From Harriotta raleighana (taxonomy: Eukaryota): 64,000 nt of DNA. The position numbers and the translations under genes were made by a program. The notes below the pieces were generated by a model. It saw nothing but the letters and a program-made list of their open reading frames with translations. It was not told where the DNA came from and made no database searches. Shown piece after piece: positions 13,178 through 42,900 of the stretch (position 1 is the first letter of the stretch; each line of letters starts with the position of its first letter). Location of the stretch: NCBI GenBank assembly GCA_050575255.1, contig JBNZDD010013729.1:12539576-12603575 (forward strand). The letters run 5' to 3'.

Positions 13178-13209
<32 letters not shown>

Positions 13210-22200: not shown

Positions 22201-25200
22201 AAAATAACTTTGTATTATATATCCATCATCAGAAACGGTATGCTACATTGATCTATTTCTTCAAGTCCAGTTCCAACAATCTGTTCTGATAACCTATTCT
22301 AGTTCTTGAGTATAAATGTTAAAGGTGGAAATTGGTTTAAAATGAGACTTACCGTATGCCAAACACTCTGTCCAGTAAAAATCCTCCAAAGAAGCAGAGG
22401 ATAACATTGGGCCAAGAATACCATGCATATAGCTGCATGAATGAGGTGGTATTAACTTTCATAACCTGTTAAGATAAACATTTGATGCTGGATTACTCTC
22501 ATTGACGTTGCATTTCATTCTGGCAAATTATAATATACAAGAATTAAGATGACATGGCAAAAGGGCTTGATGTCCATTTGGATAAAGATCAAATTCCTGA
22601 GGCAAGCATGATTGATTTTTGTTTTTTTAATCAAATATTAATGGTACAGACATGGCAAACTATATCAATCCTCATAGTCACTATGTGTTTTCAGTATCTT
22701 TGTTTTAATGATTGCTATGATTTTTCAATAATTCAACACTTCCATACTTACCCCCTGAATTTGAGACTGAAGAGCAGCTGGATTATCATAACAGAAATAG
22801 CTACCTGAAGGGAGGAGAATATTTTTTTTTTAGTTTTAATAAAACCAACAAAGTCAATTAAGTCTTGACACTTTGTGCCAGACTGGTGAGGCACAACCAA
22901 TTTGCAATAACACATTTGCTATTTTTTTCTTGGTGGCTTGTTGGGTCATGATAAGACTATATATAGGCCTAGTGATTTGCCTGCACTTTCAGCTCTGCAT
23001 GGTGGAGTTAAACAATTAAAAATATTTCACCCAGTAACTCTTTCTCACAGGCTTGCAGGTACCTCCTCAACAAGGCTTTATTCATATGTAAATATTACAG
23101 CTATTTGTTGGCCCTGATTTATTTAAACAGAAAGGGTTGATGGAGGCAATCTTCAACCTGAACTCACTCAACATAATCACACATCTAATAGTTTGCTGGA
23201 TATTTATCAGGAGCTGAATGATGTTCCTCTACTTGAACCATGTTTACTGAGGTTAGCAAGATACTCTACACAGGTCAGGGATCAAACCTTGTGTTTGATA
23301 GCTACAAAGAGTCATTGAATAAATCACTTGAACAAACGAGGCGAAGAAAGTTCATTTTACCATTTCATCCACTATTACAATTAAACAAAGCTACAATTTT
23401 TATGATAAATTTTACTTGGTNTACCATTTTACCATTACTATTACAATTAAACAAAGCTACAATTTTTATGATAAATTTTACTTGGTATTTTGTATATAAA
23501 TGAGTGTTCATGTATTTTTCATGAGACACAGGCTGTATCAAATATTATCACAAAGTCTTATCATTTGTTCAATAGATATGTTTTTTCTGATGATAAGTGA
23601 ACTGCTTAAAACCAAACACTAAGTTTTTACCATTTATATTCTTAAGAGAAATATGAATGATCTTAAAACTACAGCTGATAAGATTTCATTAACGGAATTG
23701 AAAGAAATATTGACAAGACTAATTTTAAGATTCAATCTGCTGGGATCGACTACAAAAAAGTGAGTACACTGGTAATTCCAGTGAGGCATTTTGAGCTCCT
23801 GATATACAATTTATAATTGTATAGAAGGAGGATTTCGCCTTTCAAGGACATCTCAAAGCATTTATTGTCCATCTGAATAGGACAGATGGTCCTCAATTTA
23901 ACATCTCATGTGAGGGACAGCTCGTCCGACCATACAGTACACTCCCCTCCACCCCTGGAGTGTCAACCCAGACTGTAAACTCAACGTCAGGTACAGAGAT
24001 GGGGGAGGAAAAGAGGGACAGTAAAAGGGATGGGCTTAACCCTGAGTTCCATCATTGGCAGTTGTGCTGTCAGCCATTAAGCCTCCGAAACTCTGTAGAT
24101 CTCTCCCTCAATCCCTCCGCCTTGCAGTCCTTCCCCTTTTTTTAGATCACTCATAGAGCTTCCTCTTCGACTGTGGTTATTAAATATACGGTCACTTCAC
24201 TTGACAGTTTATTCTGTGAATTGCTTTGAGACGGCTGTAAGATTCTAAGACATCTGTAAGAGTTATTATTATAAAATTATTCTTGTATTTTTATAATTCT
24301 TTTATTCTATAGTGTTATTATTCTTATATTATTCACCCACATATATACAGCAAATTCACTTTACAGTATATTCTGTGAAGCGCTTTGAGATGTCTAGAAG
24401 ACGTGAAAAGCGCTACCAAGGATTATTCTTTTTATATAATAATCCTTGCATTTGATACAGAGCTTTTCACATCTTATCGACGTCTCAAAGCGCTTCACAG
24501 AATATATTGTAAAGTGAATCAACTGTATATTTGTGAGTGAAACGCGGCAGCCAATTGCGCACAGCAGCGTCCTCACAAACAGTGGTGGATTGAAATGACC
24601 AATTTTATTACTGTGTTTTTTTGGAGGGATTATTAGGCGTATGGAGTAAGGAAACTTGCCCAAGGTTTCGCCCTGATCTGCCTGAACACAGATCTCACGC
24701 TTGTAAGGTGAGTGCTCTAACCACTGAGCTACAGGAGCTCCTTCGTATATTATAGTGTGAATTATTTTATAGTATTCTTCTATTGGTGTTATTTTTATTA
24801 TGAGCAGCGCTGTATTTTGCCTACAATTCACAGTCGATTCACTTTTACAGTATATTCTGCAAAACGGTTTGAGACGCAGTCTAGAAGATATGTGATCACA
24901 GACAAGGATGATGATGATGATTCTCATCGTGTTGTTATTATTCTGATAGTAATATTCATTACACAGGCTTAAGATGATATGAATTCTTATTGTGATCATT
25001 ATTACAGTTTATGATTCTATTTGATTATCAGTCAGGTCAGGTCAGTCAGTTAGGACAGGTTAGGTCAGTCAGGTGGGTTTGGTTAGTCAGAGCGGTCAGG
25101 TCAGTCAGGTTAGGTCAGTCAGGTTAGGTCAGGTCAGTCTCACCGAAGCCCAGGAAACACATGAGGACAAGCACCAGGAGGAGGTGGAGGCCTCTGGTCG

Positions 25201-25483
25201 GGTCACACAGAGAGGAGGAGGCGCTGCAGCAGCCGCCNGGGTTTGGTTAGTCAGAGCGGTCAGGTCAGTCAGGTTAGGTCAGGTCAGTCTCACCGAAGCC
25301 CAGGAAACACATGAGGACAAGCACCAGGAGGAGGTGGAGGCCTCTGGTCGGGTCACACAGAGAGGAGGAGGCGCTGCAGCAGCCGCCGGTGCCGGGATCT
25401 GTGTCGGTGCCGGTGAGGAGGGAGTCGGAGAGGCCATCGCCGCCCTCCCTCTCCCTCTCGGTGTCGGTCTCCGTCTCCTCCAT
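4643..25483 (-). CDS. MFSD1: MFSD1 lysosomal MFS transporter gene (15 shared exons plus alternative terminal exons; 475 aa short form, 531 aa long form)
   Basis: Exons 25294-25483, 22752-22804, 22353-22465, 21224-21266, 20122-20189, 18363-18471, 16072-16174, 15461-15559, 14195-14306, 12195-12251, 11783-11939, 10545-10642, 10188-10300, 9047-9094, 8891-8951, then 6657-6660 (short) or 5298-5409 + 4643-4702 (long). All GT-AG with consistent phases; motifs CFLGFGSYFCYDNPAALQ, GIGGESLAVAQN, MQSIQNLGLA. Confidence 0.95.
5298..5409 (-). CDS. MFSD1: MFSD1 long-isoform exon (VENAERIRQWEEEDLAKIQPMSAFAVRNRYLSRLGAQ)
   Basis: gtttcgcag acceptor, phase-2 start matching exon 15, open frame, gtaag donor. Confidence 0.8.
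6657..6660 (-). CDS. MFSD1: MFSD1 short-isoform terminal exon coding part (GA|A TGA)
   Basis: tttcttacag acceptor then A TGA completes Glu-stop; same split-codon arrangement as I recall for human MFSD1. Confidence 0.65.
6717..6968. mobile_element. Degenerate mariner/Tigger-like MITE
   Basis: Imperfect TIRs AGTCCTCCCTTAAC / GTTAAGCGAGGTCTTCCTG-TA; related element at about 17594-18149. Confidence 0.55.
7312..7598 (+). mobile_element. tRNA-derived SINE with Deu-like core and L2-shared tail
   Basis: A-box head TAGCTCAGTGG, core CTGCTGTGTGCAATTGGCTGCC, tail GAAGCGCTTTGAGAC...GTGAAAAGCAC. Confidence 0.85.
8891..8951 (-). CDS. MFSD1: MFSD1 exon 15
   Basis: GGELNLAAWKRSELQNITAEE; ag/gtaag; unspliced read-through also gives GAG TAA. 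Confidence 0.85.
9047..9094 (-). CDS. MFSD1: MFSD1 exon 14
   Basis: LALMAALVLYFWDLLSG; cag/gtatga. Confidence 0.85.
9690..10035 (+). mobile_element. Old DeuSINE (SacSINE1/AmnSINE1-like) copy
   Basis: Degenerate Deu domain GCTGCATTGCCAGAGATGGTGTCCTTCAGTAAGATGTTAAACC...GATCCCATTGCATTATTTGAA...CCTGGTCAGCAAT; other remnants at about 23830-24000 and 29380-29700 (-). Confidence 0.7.
10188..10300 (-). CDS. MFSD1: MFSD1 exon 13
   Basis: MQSIQNLGLAVVSIAAGAILDSKGYFLLEVFF; tag/gtaagt. Confidence 0.93.
10545..10642 (-). CDS. MFSD1: MFSD1 exon 12
   Basis: SLLGISYSLLACALWPMVAFVVPEHQIGTAYGF. Confidence 0.93.
11783..11939 (-). CDS. MFSD1: MFSD1 exon 11
   Basis: IVYIISAPASPVLGFLVDKVGKNI...WNPWIAM. Confidence 0.93.
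12195..12251 (-). CDS. MFSD1: MFSD1 exon 10
   Basis: VFFIEKFKFSPAEASAVNS. Confidence 0.92.
12384..12933 (+). mobile_element. L2 LINE 3' fragment with 7-bp TSD
   Basis: LHWLPI/RIDFKIL-type coding remnant and (GTT)n tail; flanked by GTAAAAC at 12377-12383 and 12934-12940. Confidence 0.88.
13178..13204. repeat. (CA)n microsatellite
   Basis: Directly visible. Confidence 0.9.
14195..14306 (-). CDS. MFSD1: MFSD1 exon 9
   Basis: EVVKLTDVKHFPASLWLIFFICVGYYVAVFPFIGLGK. Confidence 0.93.
15461..15559 (-). CDS. MFSD1: MFSD1 exon 8
   Basis: ASTCIFSLLCALFLGYLDRRAAKILNKEQGNTG. Confidence 0.93.
16072..16174 (-). CDS. MFSD1: MFSD1 exon 7
   Basis: GSTVNMNIMGWIFSRASQMVGSESPTALGISLMIG. Confidence 0.92.
16561..17375. 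mobile_element. Tigger-type MITE spanning an assembly gap
   Basis: TIRs CAGTAAAACC...GGTTTTACTG, TA TSD. Confidence 0.82.
16875..17067. other. Assembly gap (N run)
   Basis: Run of N. Confidence 0.99.
17725..17944. repeat. Long inverted repeat (about 73-bp arms, about 75-nt spacer)
   Basis: 17725-17797 is a near-perfect reverse complement of 17873-17944. Confidence 0.85.
18363..18471 (-). CDS. MFSD1: MFSD1 exon 6
   Basis: IGGESLAVAQNTYAVSWFKGKKLNLVFGLQLSMARL. Confidence 0.95.
18835..19610. mobile_element. Tigger-type MITE containing a SINE/LINE tail
   Basis: CAGTAAAAGCCCGTTTA...TAAACGGGCTTTTACTG. Confidence 0.8.
20122..20189 (-). CDS. MFSD1: MFSD1 exon 5
   Basis: VIFAAGALLNAFWLMEAGRFVFG; uncommon gAG acceptor, gtgagt donor. 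Confidence 0.92.
20348..20655. mobile_element. hAT-Charlie-type MITE
   Basis: TIRs CAGTGGTTCCCAAC / GTTGGGAACCACTG; 8-bp TSD GTCTAGAG / GTCTAGTG. Confidence 0.88.
21224..21266 (-). CDS. MFSD1: MFSD1 exon 4
   Basis: FGTILFSSFVCVGQ. Confidence 0.9.
22353..22465 (-). CDS. MFSD1: MFSD1 exon 3
   Basis: VMKVNTTSFMQLYAWYSWPNVILCFFGGFLLDRVFGIR. Confidence 0.95.
22752..22804 (-). CDS. MFSD1: MFSD1 exon 2
   Basis: SYFCYDNPAALQSQIQG. Confidence 0.93.
24436..24740 (-). mobile_element. tRNA-derived SINE, near full length
   Basis: Reverse complement of the same family. Confidence 0.85.
25294..25483 (-). CDS. MFSD1: MFSD1 exon 1 coding part
   Basis: MEETETD...LCDPTRGLHLLLVLVLMCFLGFG; gtgag donor. Confidence 0.9.
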
Positions 25484-25619
25484 TGCTTTGCCCCCCTGCC
25501 CCTCTCCTCCTGCCCTCCTGCCCCCTCTCTCTCCCCCTGCCCTGCCCTGCCCTGCCCCTCTCCCTTGCCCTGCCCCCCTGCCTCTCTCCCCCTGTCCAGC
25601 CCTCCTGCCCCTCTCTCTC

Positions 25620-25810
25620 CCCCTGGCCGGACCCTCACACCCCGCGCGCGGCAGGTCCTGTCCCGTGACTGACTCACGTCAGGCGACGAACTCCCGCGTC
25701 ATCACGTGACAGACCGGCCGGCCGGCCCCGCCTGAGCCAGGCCCCGCCCCCCCACCCGCGGCTTTTCCTGGAGACAGCGACGTCACTTCCTGGTGGAGGC
25801 GGGAGGACAG
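25620..25810 (-). promoter_or_regulatory. MFSD1 CpG-island promoter with CLEAR/E-box, GC box and CRE/ETS motifs
   Basis: CpG-rich; TCACGTGAC at 25702-25710, GCCCCGCCCC at 25741-25750, GACGTCACTTCC near 25779-25790. Confidence 0.7.
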
Positions 25811-25919
25811 AGGAGACAGTCGACAACAACAAGAACATTAAAACGACCAAAACACCCCCCCCCCCCCAAAAAAATGGTATATTCTGTGAAGCGCTTTGAG
25901 ACGTCTAGAAGATTTGAAC

Positions 25920-26037
25920 TAAACTCCACTCCCCCAGCCCTCACCAGACTGCGCTGACTCCCTGACCCGGAGAGGATCGATTTCCACAACCTTCCTCGCT
26001 CGCTCTTGTGTTCAAATCCTTCCGCTCCTCTGCACCC

Positions 26038-26075
<38 letters not shown>

Positions 26076-26346
26076 NCCCCCCCCCCATCTCTCTCCTCAC
26101 AACAGCTCCCATTGCCTTCGCTCCCCCAGGTCTGGCCTCCTCCTTGTCCCCCGAATACTCCATTTCATCATCAGCGGCCGTGCGTTCCCTGAGTTTCTGG
26201 AGCTCTCCTCCTCACTCCCTCCGCCTCACCCCCTCTCTTCCTATTTTCAGGTCACAGCTAAAGACTTCGCCCACAGTCTCGGTCACCTTCCCCCCCCCCC
26301 CCCGCATCCATTATTGTGAAGCGCTCTGAGACGCCGTCCGGTGTGG
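25920..26346 (+). mobile_element. L2 LINE 3' fragment upstream of MFSD1
   Basis: Same 3' sequence as other copies (CCGGAGAGGATCGATTTC...GAAGCGCTCTGAGACGCCGTCCGG). Confidence 0.75.
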
Positions 26347-26658
26347 AGTGAGGGCGCGATGCATGCGGGACCAGCCAGCCGAGGAATCATCGGATGTAGT
26401 CGGAAGATGCCGGTGTCCTCACAAGTGCACATGCGCGCGGGGGACAGCTAGCGCGTATACAAAAGTTTTATGCGCGATGCGCAAACAAGTGATGCTTTTC
26501 TTCTGTCGCATATGCTCGAATTCACTATTGATAAAGTCGCGTTTGACAAGGGTTGACTGCACAATCAATTCACTTGATGGTATATCCTTTGAAGTGCTTT
26601 GAGGCGACTCGAAGATTTGAAAAGCGCTGTATCAAATATAAGGATTATTATTATAATA

Positions 26659-27042
26659 CAGTAAAAGCTTCATTATCTGGTACCCTCGGGACCTGCCCGT
26701 TGCCAGTTAATTAAAAATGCCGGATATTCGAGAGGCAAGTTGCCGAAAATCCTTCACAAAAAACGAACTTATTTTAAAACATACCATATTAATAAGACAA
26801 AATAATAACAGAATTTTGTATGGATACTTACCAATAAAGCATTCTAGCACACTCGGTAAAATGATCGGTAAAATAAAAATTCCAATGTTCAGTAAATTTA
26901 ATAAGCGCAAAGTGAGCATATCACGAGTGTCCCGGGTAGCTACGGTATGAGATCCGGTTGCTGGAATGGTGAATTATACTGGGATATACTGGTTGGTTGA
27001 GCGTTCCGGTTGGTTGGGTGCCGGATAACCAAGCTTTTACTG
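26659..27042. mobile_element. Tigger-type MITE
   Basis: TA-CAGTAAAAGCTT...AAGCTTTTACTG-TA. Confidence 0.82.
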
Positions 27043-30000
27043 TACTGTGTTTTAATTCCTGATAACTCTGGCTCTGAATCCCTCTTGTGATTCTCCCTCT
27101 CTCTTTCCCCCCACCTCCCCCCTTTCCATGTAATGCTTACACTGTCACCCAGAGGTTTTCATGTGGACTCATCTTATTGTGTGGATAAACAAACATTGGC
27201 AAGAAAATCAAACAGAGATTGAAGATCATGCAGATAAAAATGAGAAACAAAACAACCAGAAGAGGGCACTAGCATGACCAAAGATAAGTCGATGATTATT
27301 TTAGACAGTGTCAAAATCATCTGGTCAATCACCAGGGCCATTTCAGCTAACACTGTTCACTTGGCGAGCCGCACTACACAGAATCGTTCCTACATTGCAA
27401 ATTTGCATTGCAAATCAGATATTTTGCCTTTCCCTAACATTTAATGAAAAAACAATCTGTGCCAATGATCTTCAAAATTTCTATGTTCTCTCTGCACCTT
27501 TTGCTTGCATGACATCTCAAACTACATTTTTGCAACTTATTTTAAATTTAATACATAGTAAAACAGTTTAAATATGACTTTGCTTTGCCAGATTACTCAT
27601 TGCTACTTGTGTGCTGTTACATGCATAAGTGAGTAAACGCATCTGGCTACTTTTACTAACTGAGCTGTCAAACTTAATGGGAACATCACTCATGCAATGC
27701 AGAATGCAGGTTTGAATATAAATCTTATAAAGATAGCTGATTTGAAGAAAAATACTGGTCATATATTAGTGCGATTTTAGAAACTAATGGGCGGACTGCC
27801 AAATATCCTGTAGACTGCCTGATGACACCATCGATTTATACTGCCCAGAACCAGGCCACTCGGCTCAATCAGTCCGTGTTGGTGTGTATACATACTCCAC
27901 AGGAGTAACACAAAGCATTATAAAGCACTTAACACAAAAATCTGTTTCTCTGTTCCATTGTATCGAGATTGTATCCTTTGCAAATGACTCTCTTTAATGC
28001 TAAGCAAAAGCATAACTGGGTACCATATTATCTGAAGTACAGCTTTCACCATCCTCAGTATTGTATGGTCCATATGGAATAACTGAATCCTGAGCTCCAT
28101 TAAACTTTATTCTCACAGGGTGGTGTTATCAGTGATTCAAAATGATACTACGATGATATTTACTGCTTGGATCTTTACACATGCATTAAATCATGTCGTG
28201 CATACCATTGAGTAAAAGAACTGTGATGTCCTCTACTATGAAAGCCAACATCTTAAAAAAATTATAAAGAACAGAAAGTACCAGAAAGGCATCAGTAACA
28301 GGCCGTGGTAATAAAAAAAAAGGACAGAGCTACTGGATTGGGTTTCTGCCCACTTATCCATGCACCATGTGCAGCTTTTATATTTTTTGGCTGTGCTGAA
28401 TTACAACACGTCTGCAAGATGGAAAAGTGCAATTATATTATTTATTTTTATGAATCCTCGGTGTCGATTGATTCAACATCCAAAAAGAGAACCTTGAGTT
28501 AATATTGTAACAAAACTAAGAAAGAACCTTTTGTAGGATCGTACTGGCAGTAGATGAACCGGAAAATTTAAGATAATAAAGAATGCTGATTCCAACAAGA
28601 ATGGAAGACTTTTCCAGTGACTTGGATTCCAATGTAAAACAAGTTTGTATCGCTCTAAACTCTGCAATGCAAAACGGTTGTTTTCAATCAGTTTCCATGG
28701 AATGCAAGTCAACAGCCTAAAATTATTCATAACTTGGCTCTGAAATTTAAGAAAATTTAATCTAGAATCCACAAGGATGGGCGTTATGGAAAATTGCTTT
28801 CCTGTCCTTTTGTCTGCCTTTTCCTTCGTATAAGCACTCAGCAAAATGAGTCATTGGAGTCTCTCATATCATATGTGGTTCAAAAAGCTGTGAAATTCTC
28901 AAGTTGCACCAAATTCCTTTTTAAAAAAAAGTACAATATAAAACTTCTGTATCACTCTCTTTCCCCATTTTAAAAGGTACAGTTGTTCTCTACCCCCTAC
29001 TCACTCCCTCCTTCCCCTCGCCCTGATCATTTCTCCCTGCTCGGGTCCTAAACCAACTGTCCAGCGCCTTGGGACATCCTCCCAACATGAAATGTGCTCT
29101 ATAAATGCAATCTTGTTGTTTTCCTCAACTTCAGAAATTTAGTCAGTGATAAATTTCAAATTTATTTAATCTTTGGACAGTCCTTAGTCAAAGTGTAGAA
29201 ATAAAATTACTAACAGCTTCTATACCGTTAATATACCATTATTTATGTATTTATTTCTTAACTATAACACCCTCAGATATATAACTTACAGTGTATGGTT
29301 CCATGAAAACAAAATATGAAAATCACAAACTCATGAAGATAATGGGACATGCCTCTCAAATTCCCAACTGGTTTTCTATCATTTTGAACTGAATTGAAAC
29401 CCGTGTCTGAAGGGAAAGGACAAAGTGCTGACTGTACCCAAAGTCGTCTTTATTACAGTATCTTCCTTATATATCCCAGGGTGAAGAAATTACTTGATCT
29501 TTCCTTCCTTGACACAAAGTGAAGTCACCGTGTATTTACAGGCAACATAGCCAAATTGGGCATCATGATGTGATGAGAAATTTATTTCAAGGATTGTTGG
29601 TCAAAACATCAGGAATTACTACTACTTTCTCTTTTCGGATAATGTTCATCTGACTATGCAGATGGAGTCTTGGTGTAATGCCCTAATTGACAAGGGCAGG
29701 CTTTATTACATATCAATTGGAAACCAGAACTGAAAATAATAATAATAATACTTGCAAAATCCAAAATACTGCAGATGTTGGAAATCTGAAACAAAAACAG
29801 AAATCTCGGGGAACACTATGAAGAAAGACGAGAATGAACGTTTTAGGTCCACGACCCTTTGTCTCATAATAATCCTTGTATTTGATATAACGCCTTTTCA
29901 TGTGGCTGAGACGTCTCAAAGTGCTTCATGGAATATACTGAAAAGTGAATTGACTGGGCGAAAAACAATAAATACATGATCTGATATAAGCAATTGGCAG

Positions 30001-30792
30001 TATTCCATTTGAAATACAGAAGACTATTTTAAATGATTTTAAAAATAGAAATCTTATTTTTAGAAAATACAATAAATACAAGGGCAATTGTAATGATACA
30101 TTGAATTATATGGTTTGTGGAAAATAAAACCCTGTTCAAATAAGTATATACATCATTGAATGTGATGTAATTTTTCAGTACAGAAAAAAAACATTAAAAT
30201 GTACAGAACACATGTGGTATACTTCGGGTCTGGATCAAGATTTCATATACAGTATATATAAATAGACTTTGCTTGGATCACAAATTCTGTACAATAATTC
30301 TGTTAAATGAAAAGAGTTGGGGCACAATAAGCTAATAGTTAAATCAAGTATGAGGTTACTTGAAGCTGACATGTATTTGTAGAAGAGTTCCTGAAAACGC
30401 TGCAGATTTTCTTTTATTCCCTAAAGACTTTTCAACTAGACATTGGGTTTGATAAAATGAAATCAAGTTGCTTTGGGGGCAAAGTGCTCAGATGAATGAA
30501 CATCATTCTTCCTGATGATGTTCAATGACTGCACCTGGACTGCCCAACAGAGATTTGCTGAGTGCAAAGTGATGCTTTCATTTTCTGAATACAGATTTTG
30601 CTCGAGTTTGCTATTTCTGACATAGTTTTCCATTCTACCAGTTGATACAATTAGACATGACTGCAATGTCAGTTGTTTGTTTGTGCTGCGCACCCAATTT
30701 TGCAGTCTCGCATGTTGTATTCTGAATATGGTTATCCATTTGTCTATTGTGGTGCTGAAAGTCCCCACAAGCAGCTGAGTATGGAATGATCT

Positions 30793-30924
30793 TTAGTTCT
30801 TGGCTTTGCCCTTTTTGACTGAAAGTTGACCTGTGGCTTCCAGGTATTTATTGACCAATTCATCCTGTGCACTGGGCAAACAGGGCTGATTCCTGCCGTA
30901 TTCCATAGTGTATTCACCTTTACC
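30793..30924 (-). CDS. GFM1: GFM1 exon 18
   Basis: [43 protein letters not shown]. Confidence 0.95.
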
Positions 30925-33900
30925 CTAGAAAACATCATTACAAACGCAATTAAATTACAATTAAGCTTGAAAATGTTTTTCTTTGTTCTGCAAATCATTT
31001 AAAAGATTTCACATCAATTTTTAACTTTTTTTTAAAAAGTGCATTTACTCTGCAAGTATTTAAAGAAGCTGAATGCAGTCAATATACCTCTGTGCAAGAA
31101 CGAAGTTCAGAAGCATATCCGAACATGTTGTTCAATGGAACCTGAAAAATAAAAAATACATTTTACAACTCTGACGGAATCTCTAGTGTCCCACACCAAT
31201 TTATTGTTCACCTTTGCTTGAAATTTAAGTATTTTATTTAAATAAAGGAGAAAATTAGATTGCTGAAAGAGTTAAACAGGAAGCAAATCTCAAGTAATAT
31301 TTTAGAAACAATATTTAAATTTTTTGCATAATTTATAATAATCCTGGCATTTGATATAGCGCCTTATCACATCGATGAAACATCTCAAAGCGTTTCACAG
31401 AATAAAGTGGATTGATCATATTGTGTGGAGGAAATTTTTAATTATAAACAAAGTTGTGATAGTGCGGGGTCACTTTCAACGGTATAAAACTGAACAAACT
31501 TAATACATACATCAGAGTAAAGTGTAAAGTATTCATTTGTTCCATCCTGACCAGTGATGACACCATGACGACGATTAATCCCAGCGATGACTATTCCCTG
31601 AAACTCACTCGGTGCTACCACTTCTACTGACATGATGGGCTCCAGAATAACCACATGGGCCTTTTCCATAACTGAGTAATGGAAACAAATCAATAAGTAA
31701 TCACTGCTTTGATAGATTTGCACCAAAACATTGCAATGATGTCAATACCGCTTGGATTGATCACAGCTCCAGAATTAGACTTTTAATAGATTAGAAAATA
31801 TTTTCCAACATTTATGTAACATAATTGGTATTAAATATTTGCAAGAAGAAATCATTTTAAATATCCTGGTTTTGATAACACAGTTTTGACACAAACAAAC
31901 GCACACATTGAAGTGCTTCCAGTATATCTAAAAAGATGTGCAATTTTGAATATTTGCATTGTCTGTATAGTTTGTATTACATTTTGCTAGGTTATGTGTG
32001 GAAATTTTGTACATTTCTTGGCAAGATGGTAAGAATTACGAATATTGCTTGCAATTCTAACCTACAACGATTTCACAAACCTTGTTTAACAGCACCCTCC
32101 CCAGCTCTGATGAAGGAAATTTCATTGGAGTCCACCATATGATTGGCACCATCTTGCAATACAAATCTTACACCAGAAATCTTATGACCTGTAAGGGGGC
32201 CTTTTTCACAAGCCTCAAGGAATCCCTGTGAAAGTAATATAGACCAAAAGATTTAAAAAACAAATATAATCTCACACACATTCCTAATTGCAATCCAGAC
32301 TTCCTGCTGAAGAACCAGATGTGGTCAATCAAATTAAGGCAGCAATTGGAAGCAATGCAAAACAACTGTTTTTCTTTGAAAGACGACATAAAGATTTCTT
32401 GCTCCTAAATTCAGCCCCACTTTTTTTTTTGGGGGGAGAAACAACTCCAATTGCAAGATCTATACCATAAAATCATTAATGCTGAGCAATGACGTTTGTG
32501 CTAGTGTCAAGGAGATATGGCATGGACCAGGGTGTGCATTACATTGCACACTGTCCTTTCACATCTAAGCCTCAAGCTACAAATAACATATTGTTTAGCT
32601 CCTTTACCTTTTCAATGGCTGGCACAAACTGCTTTGGTACATTTGTTCCTACAGTTCGATCAACAAATTCCAGCTTCGTGCAGTTTTCTGGCTCCAGAGG
32701 TTCCAGCACACCAATAACCTTGCCATACTGACCTGAACCACCAGACTGCTTCTTGTGGGTAAATTCAAAGCTAGAAACAAATTGCAAAAGAAAACCAGAC
32801 AAGTTAATTACGACTATTACAATTTAGTTCTTTATCTAACCCATAATATAAAATACATTTTATTTTTTGAAAAAAATATTAACTTTGTGGTTCAAGATAA
32901 ATGACCTATACAATACAAAAATGAATAGACTTGGAATAGTTGCAAGAGCTCAAAATCAACAACAGCAAAGTAACAAACAAGCCAACAATGTTTATTAAAT
33001 TGCTTATTTGTACTGCATAGCCCCAAACCTGGAGGAAGGTTTGGAAGACAGAACTGAAGGTTTCAAACATGATTTGCCCGTCTGCCATCTCATGAACAGT
33101 TAGTTCTCTGTAACTAGCCAGAGCCTGAGTATCTGCAGGGGTAACAATAACAAATGGCCTCTGCAATGTAAAAGTGGCATGAGTTTGGAACCAAACATTG
33201 CTCATTCAATCTTCTGTTCAATTGTGACTTAACTATATATTAATGCTGCTGGTACCCACCTCAACCGATTCCATTATAAAAGGAATGCCGATTAAATTAA
33301 GATGTGAACAGGCCACGCATCATCAAGTTTACTGCTGCTGGGACACACCTCGTCAACTGAATCCATTATAAAAGGAATGTGAATCACATTAGACTGGGAA
33401 TGGTATGTATCACACGTTTAATGTGATCGGTATCCAACTTTCCAGCTAATTCACCATGAGTTGAATGCAAATAAACTTACTCACTTATTTGGAATCAAAA
33501 ATGAGTTTGGTCAAACATAAATGAACACAAAGAAAGCATGGTAAATTGAAGGAGTTCCAAACCAAACGTTTTGTTTTTCTCTGTTATGCGGAGAGAAAAA
33601 AAAAGGGAACAGCTGAACTTCCTGTTATGCACTGAATATTTTGGGAAGAGTCAGATATACACAATAAAACGAATGATGGGAATGGGATTGTTGTTTGCGG
33701 CAAAATATATTCTTGTAACCATATAATCCCACACCTGAAGCTATCCCTCACTTTTGGTTGTAAACCAGCATCAACAAAGAACAAGAGAAATCTGTAACAC
33801 TGTAAGAGGCGATTTGGCCTATGGTATTTGTCAAAATTTATCTCCTCAAATTAATTAATCAATTTAGACCCTTCAATTTGAAGCAAAATGTGTTCAGCCC

Positions 33901-36900
33901 TATCCAATGGACTTCATTTTTTGTTTAAAACAACAATTGTTTACCATTTACAGGTGAATGTTTTGCAAACTTGCCAAAGTGCGAAGTAAACTAGTTTTGA
34001 AAGTAGTTTAAAAGAACAAAATCAGTTATAAACAAAGTGAAGTAGTGGGTTAGGATGTCCTTTGAGCTTTTCAGATTACTTCATGATCATTCCAAATGTA
34101 CTTCATATTTCTTATACTAATTTTACATCCTTTCTACTGCAGTATGAGAAATTAACAAGACTAACAATTCCATCCTTTTGTAACTAGTTATGAAATTAAT
34201 CTGCTCTAAAGAAATTCAAATAATCTGCACATTTATAAAGCCTTTCAGTCAAGTAAAAGTTTAAATATCTGTAATAACCACATATCCTAAATAGGTTGAG
34301 TCACTTTCTTGACTCAATACCTTATTATGTAAATCTTATCATCCTATATAATAAGAGTACAATACTACAAAATATTTAATCATGTTATATTTATATTTAA
34401 ATGCATACAATTAATAAAGACAAAGGTCATAAAAATTGATAAAAAAGTGCAGTGAATTTGCATCCTGCTCACTGGCAAGACATCAACAAATTAAAAAAAT
34501 GGAAAATTCATTTGAGAGAATTTAGCATGTAAACATGAACTTTGGCTCAAGTTCAGAAGTTAAAGGAAACCACATCTTTTTAGGAAGTGAAAAAAAACCA
34601 AGATTTATTAGATGAAGCCAAACGTCCATTCCAGAGCCTAGCACAACCACTGGCAGCTGAATTAGAGCAAAATCAGAAGTCAGAGTGTGTGTGGTAAAAT
34701 TCTAAAGATAAAGTCCATAAAACACCACAATCTCATCATTTATTTCCTGGAAAAAAAATCATTAAGGCTGGGAGGCAGCTGCACTCCTTACCTAACTACT
34801 GAAACTACTCCGTCCACAAAAGCAAAGGTTACTTGAAAAGTTTCCTTTTCAACTGGACTTGTTCACTCAAACATGTATTACGTAGGTTTGTGTTTCGTGG
34901 CTTGGTTCCTACCATTCGTATATGGAGAAACAAAAATGATAAACGACTCCAATGTCTCAAAATCAAACCTGGGATTTCGGAAAGCTGAACAAGCTGCAAG
35001 AGTGGCTGTACATTATCTGAACTATCAAGAAGGATCTCCCAATGCAGTTTATGACCTACATGAACTGAAGAATCATGACTCGGAGGTAAGAAACTTCCTT
35101 TTTTTAAAAAAGGAATACAGTACTTAAGAAGTGAGCAACTTCAAACTTTTGTATCCTAACAATGTATCAATCATGACCGACTTAATTGTGTTCTAAGTAA
35201 TACACATTATTTCACACACTGTACACATTTAAAACAGAAAATTCACTGTACCTCGTTGTCCTCTACATTAAGATTACAAAGTTGAAAATCACAATTTAGG
35301 TTGAACATTTCAAAAAACAAGCAGCGCAACAGAATTAAAATGCATGTCACATAAACGGAGATGGCAAACTCTTTTGTTTATGAGAACCTCACTGAATTGG
35401 AACCTGAACACATAAAAGCTTGTTAGAATTTCAACATAGTAACTTAGAAACAAATAAAAAAATATTTTAATGTCAATAATCAAACTTTAACAAAAGAAGT
35501 TTGCATTGTATTTTTGGGTTTCTGTTTTAGCCTACATGCTCAGTAATTCAACAGTAGTTTTTTCCTTTTAAACTTAATGAAAGATTGATGTACATATGGA
35601 AAACTATTGGTTTCAAATATTCAAAGCTTACAGTTATTCAGTTCAAAGTCAATTAAAGTGGATATCTGCACTTCATCCAGCTTAATTTTACTAAGAGTTA
35701 ATGAATTACATAACTGCCAAAATGCTTTGATTCCCACATGGATTACATTGTATATCCGGTATAGAAACCATTTTACAATTCTAATTCAGTCAATTTGGCA
35801 TCGAAGAACTTTCTCACACTGTTTCAAACCATAAGCATTAAGAATTTTAGTTTCATACAATGCCTCTTTAGAATGAAACCAAATGTTGCTCAATAAAACC
35901 ATAGCTCTGAGTTACCAGCTCAAACATTTTCTACAGGAAATGTTCACAAAAATCTTTCATAAACACATTTTAGGGTTAGAGAATCATTGGAACATTGGGT
36001 TAGCACATTGACTCTTGGAAATATGTTCAAATATAGTCTTGTGATGGTCTGGAAGTAGCTGTTATTTGCTGATTGTAAGAGTGCTAGGTGAAATCAGTAT
36101 TCAAAAAAAAGCAGAAAACAGCCATTTTTTGCATGCTCTCGGGATTAGTGATTTGCTGGACGTGAAGTTTTGCAAACATGAGGTTATAACAATAATAAAC
36201 TAAGTTATTTGCTGTGGGGGTTTTATTATGCTGTCAAAATGTATCAAAGAGCTTCTTAGAATTTGCTTAAAAATGCAGTTTCTGGCTACTGTATTTGTAG
36301 GAGAACCAATTATTCTCACATTTAATATACAAACGTATCAGAAGTTACCCTCAATGGTATAACAATGTCTCTGTGTAGTAAAATTACACCAGGAGTATCG
36401 GATCACTGTTTTGAAACTTTTATAAATTTACTACTTTAACAAACCTGATACTGTATTTGTTTCTTCAAACATAATACAAGTTAAATTGTAAACACCATTC
36501 TTAGTATTAAAACTCCTACCCCAACCCCTCCCCTTGCCCTCTTTCCCCCTTTCATTCCTGGCCCTCTCGCTTCCATGACTGTTTGTGGAACACTGCTGTG
36601 CGCAATTTGGCTGCCGCGTTTCGCCCACAAATATACAGTCAGTTTTTCCTGCTTTTCTTCCCCCGACCCCACCCCCCACTTGACTGTACAGCGCCTTGGG
36701 ACGTCCTCCTGACGTGAAAGGCGCTATATAAATATAATATATAAATAAAACAAACATCAAACAACAATAATTTGCTGCAATTATTGAATACAACAATTTG
36801 AATAATTGCTGAACACAATAATGTAAAACCATAATTTGAATAATTGCTGAATACCTTTCAATGGGTGATATTGAATGTTTTTTTCAACAGGTGATTCCAG

Positions 36901-39900
36901 ATTTAGGAATCAAGTACAATCTCCAATTTGATGTGGATAATAAAGATAGCTCTACGAACGTAAGTATGAAAATCAAATAGCCACATTAATATCATAGTGA
37001 GGTGTTTGTACCAAATATGCCAAAAAAGAAAAAAAAAAGTTGTTTTAATGTTTTTACATTATATTGTTGTGAACGTCAAGCGTTGCCATTACGAAGAGCT
37101 CTGAGATGCTGTCCTGTGTGATAGGTGCTTTATAGACTCAAGTTGTTGTACATGCTCTTCTTTGATAATAGATTTGTCAGAAAAAAGTAAAAATGTTTCA
37201 CTGCTCCACCAAACATGATTAAACAGTAATAATAATCGCTGCATTTAATATAGTGCTTTTCACATCTTATCGATGTCTCAAAGCGCTTAATAGAATATAC
37301 CGTAAAGTGAATTGGCTGTTTATTTGTGGGCGAAATGCGTCAGCCAATTGCCCCATTGCAAACAGTCATGGATTGAAATTATCAATTTATTATACAGTAA
37401 AACCTCGTTTATCCGTGACTCAATGAACTGGAAAACCCTTTCAACCGCCATTTTTTAAAAAAGTCCCGATTCAATGAACCGGCAGTTATCTGTCAAATAG
37501 TGATGACGCATTTAATGAATCGACTGTCGCACACAAGTACTGGTGGAGGTACTCGCGGTTGGCCGCTAGTCTTGTCTAAACTCGCTCCTGCTCCTTTTAA
37601 AAGTCACGTTTTATTTTACCTCTGTCGGGTGAGGGCTGCCGTTGCGAAGTTAAGTATAAATAATAAAGTACTAATACAATATTCTGTTATTATTTCGTCT
37701 ATTATTAATATGGTATGTGTTAAAATAATTCTTAATTTTTTAAAAAAACCGTTCAACCGGAAAACCGTTTACCTGCCACTGGCCAGGTCCCGTGGGTGCC
37801 GGATAAATGGGGTTTTAGTGTAGTGTTTTTTTTTTTTATGAATTATTATTAGGCGTGTGCACGAAGGAATCTTGCCCTAGTTTCTGCCCTGACCTGCCTG
37901 GATTCAAAACAGGTCTCATGCTTGTAAGGCAAGTGCTCTAACCATTGAGCTACATGCTGAAAGAACACAAGAGTAATATAAAGGGATCACCACTCAATAA
38001 TATAAAAGGATAAAGCTAAAATTGGATGGACTAAGGATTGTAATAGTCGTTTCTCACACCAGGTTATTGGCAGCTGTACAGCTATTGTAATCTTCAACAA
38101 AAAGAACGCAAGACCATACACAAATGTAAACTGCAACATAGGTAAAAAATACCAGAAAGAGGCTGCGAGGAAAGATCTTCAGTTTTATCTCAAGATGATC
38201 AAGAAAACGCCACTAGCGGTCGTGAAAAATATTCCTGGTATGAAGTTTCAACTTTAATGTGTCACTTAGCAGTAAACAACGGTAATCTTTCAGCATGATT
38301 TGAAGTTATAATAATAAGGGAATATTTTAGTGCAATTAAATTGAAGCGTAAGATAATTTCCATGTTTGTTTTATTTTAAACCTGCCTTTTCTTCTTCCCC
38401 TTCTCAGATAATTTTGGATTAATAGATCCTGAAATTATGCCATTCTGGCACTTGGCAAAGATTGCTGCCAGTTACATCATGTGGGAAAGGTCTACTGAAA
38501 ATGTAGCCTACAACTTGGCCCGTCTACAGAAAATGAACCAACTTGTGAGCAACATTTAACACCAATAATAATAATAGCAACAGCCTTTTGCATTCCAATT
38601 CTTTCACATCATTAATATAACAACAACAACAACAAAATTTCATGTCAGGAGGACGTCCAAGGCACTGGACAGAACTGAGCTGGGGATGGGGTGGGGAGGA
38701 AAGGGGGGGATTAAGAGATGCCGATATGATCATCAAAGAGGAGAGTTTTGAGGCGGGACTTGAAGGAGGCCAGGAAGGAGGTGAGGCGGAGGGACTGCAG
38801 GATGGAGTTCCAGAAGTTGGGGGCAGAGTCGCTAAAGTCTAATATATAATATGTAAAGGTTATATATTAATATAACTAATTGTACAATGACTTTTGATCC
38901 CCTCAGAACAGGCATGAAAAATATCTTTATCTCGCTTTTATTGTTCTTCTGCACCAGATACCAAGAGAGGTAAGTTAATCCAATTCTAGCGGCCACAAAA
39001 TTGTCTTTGAAGATAATAAATTTACTTTTCCACCATCAATTACCTGCCAGTAATACATTCTCTCTGAATAGGAAATAGTCACTTGCTATGTTGACGTGAA
39101 CTGGTATCCAAACCTACCACTGAATCCGAATTACCATTGTGTGCCTTTGTCTCAACAAGAAAATATCGTCGAAGGTTCTGGAGTTGAAACGATCGAAGGG
39201 TCAACTATGGAAGAAGGATCTGCTATGATCTGAGCAGTAGCCACACATGAAATGTCAGTTACACAAAATGTATTTTACGATTGTAGCATTTAAAAATAAC
39301 TCAAATCTCTCAAAAAGGACTTTAGTAAAATGATACAATTGAATGCTAACTCTCAGCTAAAACAGCTGCTTCAAATGTGGTCTATAAAGGTTGCAGAATA
39401 ACAACATAAAATAAATAGCTAAATGGTATGGCAACAGTAGATCAGCGAACTACAGCATTGTCAACGATTACTAAAACCACTAACATTCTCAACACACATG
39501 CTATATTATTGAACGTTTTATTGCTAACCATCAATAAAGAAATGCATTAAAATTACATTTATTGTATAAGTACAATTTTATAAGCATTCTCTGAAAAATA
39601 GAAGTTTGAGTTGCTGCTCTCCTATATATTTTTCTCCAATCGCTGCATGTGGAGGATCAGTTACAGTCAATGAATGCTTTGGCATTCAAGACTGCATCTC
39701 TTACTAAAAAGCAGATAAATGTATAAAATTTTTATGCAAATAATGTCAAGAAAACTCCTGGAAAATCTGGCCCATGAATTGGCCAGAGAATGAGCCTTGG
39801 CTTTGCGTGCCTGGCAATATGGTACAGGATCGAATGAAAGCAAAGCACGAACAGTATATATATATTTGTATATTCTTTTACCTATATTGAATTACAATTA

Positions 39901-42900
39901 ATGTTGTTTTGACAATTGACTATCTTAACAAAACAATTCTTTAGAACTCAACGCAAAATGCTGCAGATGCTGAAAGTCTGAAAGAAAAACAGAAATCACA
40001 GTTCCCAGCGATTTCTGTTTTTCTTTCAATTCTTTAGAAGAGTCCTGTTCAAGGATAATTCGTGCAAAGTCACCCAGAATGTGATTAGACAAGTAGATGC
40101 TTTTGGTAATGTTTTTGTTGAAGATGTATTTCATTCAACATCAGATAAAATGTTTCAGCCCCATGGCACCCCAATCTAAACTACAAACCAGAGGATTTGG
40201 AAACACAGACATATAACTAGATGGTTCCTTAAAATAAATGGGCGGTAGAATATTTGGAGGCCTTGATGAAACTATCAGGCCAATAAATAGACTTCTAAAA
40301 AGAAAATCCTTCATCTAAATCAAGTGTATTTCTATTTTTCTGACAACATCCCTTTTTACTACTGAAAGACATTTAAAATAACAAAACAAATAATTTAGTG
40401 AATTTATAGGAATAGAACTATACTTACGGGACAGGGGCAGATATTGTTTCTCTGAAGGCAACTTTAGGTTTTCCCATTACACACGGGCAATTGTATTCTC
40501 TCTCGAGTCTCTGAATGTTAAATAAATAACATCATTTTTAAACACAAATTAAGGAAAGTTTACAACGGATGCTTTCAAAACATTGAACAAATGAAGATTA
40601 CTTTCCTTCTCCAACTTGGAAATTAAAATAAATTAGTACTGCAAGTTTGATAGCATTTCTGTGCATGAAACATATCAGTAATAAAAATGCGGTTTCCCTC
40701 ATACTGATCACTTAAAATGAAATAAATGGATGCTTTCACATCACTGGTCTGAAATCATACCATACAATAAGCCTAGATATATATATATATCTCAAATCAA
40801 AAGGTATTTGAAACTCCTGAAACACTGAAATAGTTAATACATAAAGTTCAGTAATCAAACTGCAACAAATTCAGACTATAGAGTGAAAGAATAAAACACG
40901 GAATGTGGTACCTGGGCATAAATTTCCAAGTGCAATTCTCCCATTCCAGATACAATCGTCTCTCTGCTCTCTGAGTCGTAAAATATTCTAAACGTGGGAT
41001 CCTCTCGTGTAAATCTTCCAATTCCTTTGGAAAATTTATCCAAATCATTCTGAAACAAAATTGAACATACATTTAGGTTTTTTTTCATTTCTGATCCACA
41101 TTTTCTGTCGTTTGGAGATATTAAACTAAGGTGGTCCAACAACAACTTGTATTTATATTCACTTTACAGTATATTCTATGAAGCGCTTTGAGACATCTGG
41201 AAGATGTGAAAAGCACAATAACAAATGGAAGCATTATAATTATTATCATTTAGCACCCAGATGACATCTGCACGCTGCTTTTACCCTTTGTTTGCTGACG
41301 GCCAGTTAAGTAATATTGTTGTAGTTTCTCTTCCGGAAACATATGACCATAAGAATCATATAGAAATCCTGTGTTTTAAATTGTGTCCAATTGAGCTGTT
41401 ACCTATCTATCTTCAAACACTTGTTACCTATCTATCTCGATCACTTTTTGGTACGGACTTTGGCTTCGTAATCAAAAGGTCACCGTGAAACAATAACGCT
41501 TTCTATGGTTTTAAAAATTAAATCCTTAATCCTCCTTACCCGTAAAGTTGCTTGCAACATGGTAAACCATAATACAGTAAAACCCCGTTCACCCAGCACC
41601 CTGGGGGGGGGGGGGGTCGACTAATTGACTGTACCAGATAAAGGGGGGGGCAAGTTGCCGAAAACCCAACATAAAAAATTAACTTATTTTAAAACATACC
41701 GTGTTAATAATACACTAAATAATAACAGAATTGTATGGATACTCACCAATAAAGCATTCCAGCACACTCGGTAAAAAGATCGGTAAAAAAGCAAGTCCGT
41801 AAATTTAATAAGTACGCATTGCACGCATGCACAAAGTGAGCAAACTCGCGATTGCTAGAATGGGGAATTGCCCCGAGAGGGGTTGAGCAATCAGGTTGAT
41901 TAGGTCATGGATAAACGAGGTTTTACTATATAATAATACTTGATACAATGTCTTATCGTGTCGTTCAGGCATCTCAAAGCCCTTCGCAGAACGTACTGTG
42001 ACCTAGCAAAGGCTAACATTTTGTGGGAGAAAAAGAGGAAAGAAGACTCCTTTTAGAAAGGATCTGTCCATGATTTACCTTGTTGGTAGGTTTTATGGAT
42101 ACTGATATCACAGGCTCAGGCACATGAATAGATTCCTGGATGGTGGAAAAAAGGAAAGACAAACAGCTTAAATATCAACACAAGCGATTCAAGATATTAT
42201 TTGAAAACTGGCAAATATTGTAAGTTTTCTTTATTGCGCCTCAGAAACATAGAAATGAGGTTCTCATCAATTTACTGCTGATCTATCACAGTAACTAAGA
42301 TTTTAAAATACAGTAGCTTAAAACAATTAAATCAATGTAAAGTTACATTTGTTATGCTATCCATGTGGTGTTCTCCTGTCAATCATAGTGACCTTGTTTG
42401 CCTTCATTGAGTAAGTTTAACACTCTTTTGCAGTGCACGTTTAACAGCAGTTGAAACAGCTGTGAGTCAATAAAGATAGCAATTCTCTAAGAGTTACCAA
42501 TTATTATCGCTTTTCAAATGCGAGCAATTTTCCATCTGGCTATGTTGCTGCTGATAAGAAGTGTAACAATTACATTTAATTTTAATTAAATACTGATTTG
42601 CACAAATCAATTTGACTTTGATTTAAAAAGTTTACCATAACAAAAACAAGTCATGTATTTTCATTTTCTCCTATCTGGCTTGCGATTGAAAATTAAGTGG
42701 TAAATGTGGATGATAATTACTGTTTACCGCTGCAACAATGTGTTGATTTGGAATATCAGGACATAGTTAACGCCTATGATTCCTCCCAAAATCAAATTCC
42801 TGAGGCTAACTGACAGAGGAGTCCTGTAGCTCAGTGCTTAGAGGACTCACCTTCCAAACGGGAGACCTGGGTTTAATTCCAGGCACAGGGTGAAACCTTG

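What the first reader, a model, noticed from the sequence alone, without database searches (positions are those of the whole stretch)
34873..39233. Secreted latexin/RARRES1 mosaic at the LXN position: candidate pre-duplication gene
Seen: a 6-exon, 272-aa latexin-family gene antisense in GFM1 intron 13, with an N-terminal signal-peptide-like segment ([20 protein letters not shown]), an N-glycosylation sequon cluster (NDSNVS) and a tail ...YHC...EEGSAMI. Known (from memory): mammalian LXN occupies this GFM1 intron but is cytosolic with no signal peptide, while RARRES1/TIG1 and bird ovocalyxin-32 have a hydrophobic N-terminus, and RARRES1 ends YHC...EEGSAVV and lies between GFM1 and MFSD1. The N-domain mixes both (YLNYQEG is LXN-like; AVH...GSP is RARRES1-like). 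Inference: a single secreted ancestor that later gave rise to LXN and RARRES1, or an LXN that kept ancestral secretion.
Basis: partly seen in the sequence, partly recalled or inferred. Interest (0 to 1): 0.75.

Follow-up and report, generated by a model that had tools for sequence, protein, structure and literature searches.

The report
Secreted ancestral-type latexin in a chimaera
A chimaera-like cartilaginous fish has one latexin-family gene, sitting where mammals keep latexin but built like its sister gene RARRES1 and predicted to be secreted, so it likely shows the family before it split in two; the same gene is already in databases for the elephant shark.

Summary
The gene is real. It has six GT-AG exons, encodes 272 aa and lies antisense in the GFM1 intron counted as 13. 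It is 72% identical over its full length to elephant shark RefSeq 'latexin precursor', so secretion is already annotated for the orthologue. It is not a mosaic: both cystatin domains stay outside the LXN clade, and the 'LXN-like' YLNY motif also occurs in coelacanth and lungfish RARRES1. Signal peptide, four cysteines and acidic EGS tail match RARRES1/OCX-32. No second copy lies in the window, including the 5.3-kb GFM1-MFSD1 interval. Trees separate three groups: chondrichthyan genes, RARRES1-type and LXN-type. Coelacanth has both paralogues and ray-finned fish genes are LXN-type, so the duplication predates the ray-fin/lobe-fin split (AU p=0.0035), earlier than the published tetrapod date. 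Best reading (0.6): a single-copy pre-duplication pro-orthologue, with RARRES1 keeping the ancestral build and LXN derived. The root could not be fixed and no genome was held, so orthology stays open. Secretion is not special to this gene: teleost LXN long forms also have hydrophobic leaders. Function as an extracellular carboxypeptidase inhibitor is inferred, and this species has changes in a conserved hairpin. Modest interest.

The parts
34873..35085 (+). Coding exon 1 (aa 1-71): leader, sequons, first helix of the N-terminal cystatin-like domain
   Evidence: PF06907 E 1e-6; 72% to elephant shark; in-frame stop 12 codons upstream and no strong acceptor just upstream
34873..34926 (+). Predicted cleaved signal peptide, aa 1-18, ending V-Y-G; too short and weak for a membrane anchor (best 19-residue hydropathy 1.27)
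   Evidence: same pattern in 4 other chondrichthyans and coelacanth RARRES1; no SignalP run
34942..34959 (+). N-glycosylation sequons N24 and N27
36891..36959 (+). Coding exon 2 (aa 72-94)
38063..38237 (+). Coding exon 3 (aa 95-153), with C99 (38075) and C118 (38132), predicted hairpin disulfide 1, and the linker helix
38408..38544 (+). Coding exon 4 (aa 153-198); the P-D-x-x-G loop spans the exon 3/4 junction and is intact
38907..38969 (+). Coding exon 5 (aa 199-219); carries Q215, R218 and E219 where relatives mostly have E/D, S/T and Q
   Evidence: letters confirmed by reads of X13 and a contig of X2
39072..39233 (+). Coding exon 6 (aa 220-272, stop): C224 (39084) and C242 (39138), predicted disulfide 2; acidic tail with an E-G-S-G motif at 39171-39182
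39410..39538 (+). Two candidate AATAAA polyadenylation signals (39410, 39533)
   Evidence: sequence only
32771..40427 (-). Host intron of GFM1 (counted as intron 13)
25484..30792 (.). GFM1-MFSD1 interval, the RARRES1 position in other vertebrates: no family member found; one assembly break (N at 26076) inside a poly-C run
58196..58355 (-). MLF1 exon, upstream neighbour of GFM1 (synteny marker)
   Evidence: PF10248 E 2e-20
5298..25483 (-). MFSD1-like multi-exon gene, downstream neighbour (synteny marker)
   Evidence: exons; name recognised from memory, Pfam gave no MFS hit on the three short exons sent

Best explanation
This is the holocephalan latexin-family gene, nested antisense in GFM1, and it is likely the single-copy descendant of the gene that existed before LXN and RARRES1 split, predicted to encode a secreted carboxypeptidase inhibitor. 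Shown: gene structure, position, leader, four cysteines, acidic tail, placement outside the LXN clade, and both paralogues in coelacanth. Inferred history: the ancestral gene sat in this intron. A local duplication in the stem of bony fishes put a copy between GFM1 and MFSD1; that copy (RARRES1/OCX-32) kept the leader, both cysteine pairs and the tail. The intronic copy (LXN) changed the C-domain Cys to Trp, lost the tail and later lost the leader in amniotes, while teleosts kept a leader. Inferred mechanism: the leader is cleaved after Gly18, the protein is N-glycosylated, folds as two cystatin-like domains each with a hairpin disulfide, and blocks the active-site funnel of secreted A/B-type metallocarboxypeptidases as latexin does with CPA4.
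For: Orthologue: 72% full-length identity to elephant shark P0001/P0046, named 'latexin precursor' in RefSeq. Tree of 30 rows: LXN-type 13 rows 100/99, chondrichthyan 6 rows 100/100 and outside LXN; the same holds for each half and without the Cys columns. RARRES1 monophyly, which the pre-duplication tree needs, is not rejected (p-AU 0.086 and 0.119). A duplication confined to lobe-finned vertebrates is rejected (p-AU 0.0035 and 0.0025). Coelacanth holds both types on a contig of the same length with near-adjacent accessions. No second copy in the window. Every named chondrichthyan protein fetched (5 species) is of the four-Cys type and none is Trp-type. Aligning the two domains places C99/C118 on C224/C242, which suggests the two-pair state is older than the family and the LXN Trp is derived. 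Fold: AlphaFold model of the elephant shark orthologue, pLDDT 87, matches 2bo9_B at E 1e-18, rmsd 2.1 A. Both branches have inhibitory members: latexin in 2bo9 and recombinant OCX-32 (passages of PMC8144736, PMC9363672).
Against: The root is unresolved: a non-reversible model kept all three roots and slightly preferred the LXN branch (delta lnL 1.5, p-AU 0.055 for the chondrichthyan root), and domain-reciprocal rooting gave a nonsensical root. The free tree nests chondrichthyans weakly inside RARRES1-type (85/78). No genome was held, so a copy elsewhere is untested, and one assembly break lies in the GFM1-MFSD1 interval. The N/C-domain alignment is weak (14% identity, probability 2.5%, E 0.006). 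Little-skate RefSeq models have a non-hydrophobic start, and 7 Logan proteins of that cluster start at the Met just behind the leader. The window protein has E at a position where 130 of 142 aligned relatives have Q, and Q where 131 of 137 have E or D; my recollection is that this hairpin is the CPA4-contacting loop, so inhibition may be weakened in this species. Human LXN and RARRES1 did not pull down CPA4 in LNCaP cells (PMC3641360 passage). No mammalian full-length LXN and no gar, bowfin, sturgeon or lamprey sequence was in the tree.
Confidence: 0.6

Rival explanations
1. True LXN orthologue that kept ancestral traits: the duplication is older than jawed vertebrates' crown, and chondrichthyans lost RARRES1 or hold it elsewhere.
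For: Position inside GFM1, as for mouse Lxn (PMC5390104 passage); databases name all chondrichthyan members 'latexin'; this root is not rejected (p-AU 0.054); named ray-finned fish proteins fetched are all LXN-type, so loss of RARRES1 seems to happen.
Against: Needs one more loss than the best reading; no LXN-clade derived trait is consistently shared (of 4 diagnostic core columns the window protein matches LXN at 1, RARRES1 at 1, neither at 2, and the LXN match is absent in the five other chondrichthyans); RARRES1 stem length is zero in the constrained tree.
Confidence: 0.2
2. RARRES1 orthologue: the LXN lineage split off first and was lost in chondrichthyans, and the surviving gene occupies the intron by relocation, conversion or because the intron was its original site.
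For: Higher identity to RARRES1-type rows (core mean 36% v 30%); weak nesting in RARRES1; the non-reversible model prefers this root slightly; leader closely resembles coelacanth RARRES1; one GenBank name is 'Retinoic acid receptor responder'.
Against: The shared traits look ancestral, so they do not show orthology; LXN has a long stem that attracts roots; needs a loss plus a change of position; the other roots are not rejected.
Confidence: 0.15
3. True mosaic: recombination or gene conversion joined LXN and RARRES1 segments.
For: Exon 4 segment of the window protein scores slightly higher on the LXN profile (72.3 v 69.0 bits); in the 72-120 segment three elasmobranchs lean to LXN by 3-6 bits.
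Against: The five other chondrichthyans favour RARRES1 in that exon 4 segment; N-half and C-half trees both keep chondrichthyans outside LXN (93/90 and 100/99); YLNY is shared with RARRES1-type fish proteins.
Confidence: 0.05

Closest known systems
Callorhinchus milii latexin precursor (NP_001279868.1; AFK11131.1; XP_007886599.1)
   Same: 72% identity over the full length, same leader, four mature Cys and tail; sister in every tree.
   Different: Window protein keeps P-D-x-x-G where the elephant shark has P-G-K-F-G, but has lost the conserved Q of the S/T-Q-E hairpin motif, which the elephant shark keeps.
RARRES1/TIG1 and ovocalyxin-32 (coelacanth XP_006002224, lungfish XP_043926411, caecilians, birds, mammals)
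   Same: Hydrophobic N-terminus, four Cys, acidic EGS tail (66 of 74 Cys-type rows, 0 of 58 Trp-type), about 270 aa.
   Different: Position: here inside GFM1, whereas RARRES1 is drawn flanked by MLF1, GFM1 and MFSD1 (legend in PMC8144736; between GFM1 and MFSD1 is recalled). Human RARRES1 is described with a putative transmembrane segment (PMC3641360); this leader is short.
Mammalian latexin (LXN; PDB 2bo9, 1wnh; MEROPS I47)
   Same: Nested in GFM1 (mouse: PMC5390104), same two-cystatin fold, exon 4 boundaries match mammalian fragments.
   Different: Human LXN has no predicted signal peptide (PMC6435711), no disulfide (PMC2212644), Trp at the C224 position and no acidic tail.
Teleost latexin
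   Same: Long forms carry a hydrophobic leader (28 of 29 long Trp-type rows).
   Different: They are LXN-clade (Trp-type), with a long acidic spacer and annotated short isoforms that start at an internal Met.

Membership tests
Latexin family (PF06907, I47) | Sequence match to the LXN profile above the curated cut-off | tested here: met
   Three single exons exceed 24.1 bits (28.9, 36, 56.7)
Latexin family (PF06907, I47) | Two cystatin-like domains joined by a helix | tested here: met
   Model of the 72%-identical elephant shark orthologue matches 2bo9_B and 1wnh, rmsd 2.1 A; the window's own spliced protein was not folded
Latexin family (PF06907, I47) | Inhibits A/B-type metallocarboxypeptidases | not testable with these tools
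   Needs an assay; P-D-x-x-G loop intact, S/T-Q-E motif altered
LXN orthologues (bony vertebrates) | Nested antisense in GFM1 | tested here: met
   mouse Lxn lies within Gfm1; the intron number in mammals is recalled
LXN orthologues (bony vertebrates) | Groups inside the LXN clade | tested here: not met
   LXN clade 100/99 excludes it; being sister to the whole clade cannot be excluded without a root
LXN orthologues (bony vertebrates) | Trp in place of the C-domain Cys, no acidic EGS tail | tested here: not met
   C224 and C242 present, tail present
RARRES1/TIG1/OCX-32 orthologues | Hydrophobic N-terminus, four Cys, acidic EGS tail | tested here: met
   probably ancestral traits
RARRES1/TIG1/OCX-32 orthologues | Located outside GFM1, between GFM1 and MFSD1 | tested here: not met
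   Gene is intronic and the interval is empty
RARRES1/TIG1/OCX-32 orthologues | Forms a rooted clade with RARRES1 to the exclusion of LXN | tested here: inconclusive
   All three roots within the 95% set by AU

The most novel reading that the evidence does not exclude
All cartilaginous fishes keep one undivided ancestor of LXN and RARRES1: a secreted, disulfide-bonded carboxypeptidase inhibitor whose acidic Ser-Gly tail carries glycosaminoglycan chains (1 E/D-G/A-S-G motif in chimaeras, 5 in sawshark, 10 in zebra shark). LXN would be the derived copy, born before the ray-fin/lobe-fin split and turned cytosolic through an internal start codon, which would explain why mammalian latexin inhibits enzymes of a compartment it no longer enters by the normal route.
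Probability: 0.3. Interest if true: 0.5.

Novelty: new member of a known kind. Interest (0 to 1): 0.3.

Why it matters
The gene itself is an ordinary orthologue of an annotated elephant shark gene. Its value is comparative. It suggests that RARRES1/OCX-32, not latexin, shows the ancestral build; that the published tetrapod origin of TIG1 (Kordis and Turk 2009, PMC2784779) is too late; and that the zebrafish gene used as RARRES1/OCX32 in PMC8144736 likely belongs to the LXN clade (inferred from other cyprinids; zebrafish itself was not in the tree). It also offers a natural secreted protein for testing whether extracellular carboxypeptidase inhibition is the family's original job.

Tried and rejected
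Whole genome: none held. RNA: no RNA holder listed. Reads over 22000-41500 to check the assembly break were swamped by repeats and did not settle it. Rooting by N- against C-domain put the root on a bird LXN with a 4.4 inter-domain branch and was discarded. Rooting with NQ.pfam was inconclusive (6 of 30 rows dropped and two mis-modelled mammalian N-termini masked). Membrane anchor rejected on length and hydropathy. Mosaic rejected. Assembly error at the hairpin changes rejected (low depth, about 2x in each of two runs). The internal-Met test matched 45 of 58 Trp-type rows (all with Met) but only 3 of 74 Cys-type rows, so it is one-sided. The link between AFK11131.1 and the oligo-capped cDNA paper PMC3466250 could not be confirmed: no mention in the main text and supplements unreadable. 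A fold job on the lungfish protein added nothing. The bacterial promoter scan does not apply. No complex prediction was sent: no chondrichthyan carboxypeptidase was on hand, and the pair resembles a solved structure. Earlier findings of the scan: none.
Full report
Observation. The ATG at 34873 is the first in-frame ATG after a stop 12 codons upstream and has A at -3. Three exons pass the Pfam latexin cut-off alone, and a profile built from 74 relatives finds all six exon frames and nothing else of note among 2832 frames. E. coli EF-G maps GFM1 on the minus strand from about 55.6 kb to a stop at 30793, and the gene lies between the exons at 40510-40428 and 32770-32608. An MLF1 exon lies at 58.3 kb and an MFSD1-like gene starts at 25483 (name recalled).

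Organism and database status. The nearest protein is Callorhinchus milii latexin, 196 of 272 identical, so the window comes from a holocephalan. Its cluster holds NP_001279868.1 'latexin precursor' and AFK11131.1, named 'Retinoic acid receptor responder' in UniRef. By NCBI convention (recalled), NP records rest on transcripts and 'precursor' marks a leader. So the spliced form and the leader are already on record for the orthologue. Sawshark, zebra shark and thorny skate proteins have the same leader type, four Cys and acidic tail. Against uniform secretion: little-skate RefSeq models start differently, and 7 of the 12 Logan members of that cluster start at the Met right behind the leader, the other 5 being shorter. 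Whether that is gene calling or biology is open.

Is it a mosaic? No. Identity to RARRES1-type rows exceeds identity to LXN-type rows in the N-domain (35 v 30%), linker (30 v 20%) and C-domain (39 v 34%). Segment profiles favour RARRES1-type in 4 of 5 segments; the exception is exon 4, by 3 bits, and only in this species. Trees of either half keep chondrichthyans outside LXN. The YLNY motif is in coelacanth and lungfish RARRES1-type proteins too.

Family history. Of 164 proteins fetched, 72 have all four Cys; the named ones are chondrichthyan proteins, lungfish 'latexin-like', one coelacanth protein, and tetrapod RARRES1/OCX-32. Another 58 have Trp at the C224 column; the named ones are ray-finned fish, coelacanth, turtle and bird latexins; the rest are mostly fragments. 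In a 30-row tree (209 columns, LG+C20+F+G4) the 13 LXN-type rows form one side at 100/99 and the 6 chondrichthyan rows at 100/100. Rows were chosen by hand from the 156 proteins then held; most birds, teleosts and fragments were left out, and no full-length mammalian LXN was available. Coelacanth has one gene of each type, and bichir and teleost genes are LXN-type. Forcing chondrichthyans with ray-fins, which a lobe-fin or tetrapod-only duplication needs, is rejected (p-AU 0.0035; 0.0025 on 26 rows without the Cys columns). The duplication is therefore at least as old as crown bony fishes. Kordis and Turk 2009 (PMC2784779, passages seen; figure and additional files not seen) date latexin to the jawed-vertebrate ancestor, list it in Chondrichthyes, and date TIG1 to tetrapods. 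A lone chondrichthyan gene is thus already implied in print; the earlier date and the RARRES1-like build are what this analysis adds.

Where does the chimaera gene belong? Pre-duplication gene, LXN orthologue and RARRES1 orthologue differ only in the root. RARRES1 monophyly is not rejected (p-AU 0.086, 0.119), but the free tree nests chondrichthyans weakly among RARRES1-type rows (85/78). Two rooting attempts failed. The choice rests on parsimony. A chondrichthyan root needs one duplication and one loss (RARRES1 in the sampled ray-fins). A RARRES1 root needs two losses. An LXN root needs two losses and a change of position. The GFM1-MFSD1 interval is 5.3 kb and empty. Six of the seven single Ns in the window are joins with duplicated flanks; the one at 26076 sits in a poly-C run inside that interval and could hide sequence. 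The rest of the genome could not be searched. The two cystatin-like domains align Cys pair on Cys pair (weak alignment), and type-2 cystatins are secreted and disulfide-bonded (established knowledge). Both points suggest that leader and cysteines are ancestral and carry no signal of RARRES1 orthology.

How it works. Shown: leader of 18 residues ending V-Y-G, too weak for a membrane span; latexin fold for the orthologue, with each Cys pair on neighbouring strands. Inferred: cleavage, N-glycosylation, two disulfides, secretion. Inferred from relatives: inhibition of A/B metallocarboxypeptidases, shown for latexin (PDB 2bo9) and reported for recombinant OCX-32 (PMC8144736 and PMC9363672, passages). 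Human LXN lacks a predicted signal peptide yet is found in medium (PMC6435711, passages) and has no disulfide (PMC2212644, passages). Against the mechanism: no CPA4 pull-down for human LXN or RARRES1 in one cell line (PMC3641360, passages), a cis-proline mutant of axolotl Tig1 still slowed proliferation (PMC8894484, passages), and the window protein differs at three positions of the conserved C-domain hairpin, confirmed in low-depth reads. That this hairpin is the inhibitory loop is recalled; the supplement that shows it was unreadable. The tail has an E-G-S-G motif, expanded to 5 and 10 copies of the motif class in sawshark and zebra shark and absent in two skate rows. It fits the glycosaminoglycan attachment pattern described in PMC8418075 (passages), which also lists human RARRES1 as a chondroitin sulfate carrier, but at Ser40, not in the tail, and warns that motifs alone are ambiguous.

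Secretion is not unique. 28 of 29 Trp-type proteins of 265 aa or more have a hydrophobic start, two teleosts have annotated long and short isoforms, and an older coelacanth LXN model has a weakly hydrophobic extension that the newer model drops. Loss of the leader is therefore a later event than the duplication.

Literature. I found no paper on chondrichthyan latexin: latexin with Callorhinchus gave 0 papers, the top 20 of 1,195 had no mention of latexin, and searches returned only the papers cited; (glycoproteomics terms) gave 0 and one search failed. Subscription papers, including the two 2005 structure papers, were not seen, and public gene-tree resources may already show the coelacanth pair. 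PMC8144736 supplementary table 2 (read) uses zebrafish gene 494053 ('ltx') as RARRES1/OCX32 and has no cartilaginous fish. PMC5390104 (passage) places mouse Lxn inside Gfm1. PMC12876459, PMC11353285, PMC9966942 and PMC3466250 were seen as passages and added nothing decisive.

Verdict. Real gene, known family, orthologue already annotated as a precursor; not a mosaic; probably a pre-duplication pro-orthologue (0.6); useful for re-dating and polarising the LXN/RARRES1 split. Interest 0.3.

Noticed in passing
window 2455-3435 (+): Single-exon 326-aa rhodopsin-family GPCR (7tm_1 E 3e-51), P2Y-like by recall, tail to tail with MFSD1.
   Followed up: partly
window 23421, 25238, 49748, 51104, 51956, 52210: Single Ns with 60-180 bases duplicated on both sides: assembly joins that falsely duplicate the end of MFSD1 exon 1 and part of a GFM1 exon. 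A 193-N gap lies at 16875-17067 inside MFSD1.
   Followed up: yes
window 38952-38969 (+): Three changes in the conserved C-domain hairpin of this species; the elephant shark instead alters the P-D-x-x-G loop. Chimaeras may have relaxed or shifted target binding.
   Followed up: partly
P0047, P0002 (zebra shark, sawshark tails): Tandem expansion of an acidic Ser-Gly repeat, 10 and 5 motif copies: proteoglycan-like tail.
   Followed up: partly
P0095, P0096, P0048 cluster (skates): Little-skate models lack the leader and Logan proteins start at the Met behind it; a leaderless isoform in skates is possible.
   Followed up: no
P0128, P0052: Coelacanth XP_006002224 ('latexin' at NCBI) and lungfish XP_043926411 ('latexin-like') are RARRES1-type by tree and cysteines; database names mislead.
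   Followed up: yes
window 36500-36750, 37400-37950, 38640-38830, 24350-24750: High-copy interspersed repeats in the introns and in MFSD1 intron 1 (depth in the thousands).
   Followed up: no
window 34936 (+): In-frame Met22 just behind the predicted cleavage site; a Met lies 1-5 residues behind the leader in all five chondrichthyan proteins that have one, so leaky scanning could give a cytosolic form.
   Followed up: no
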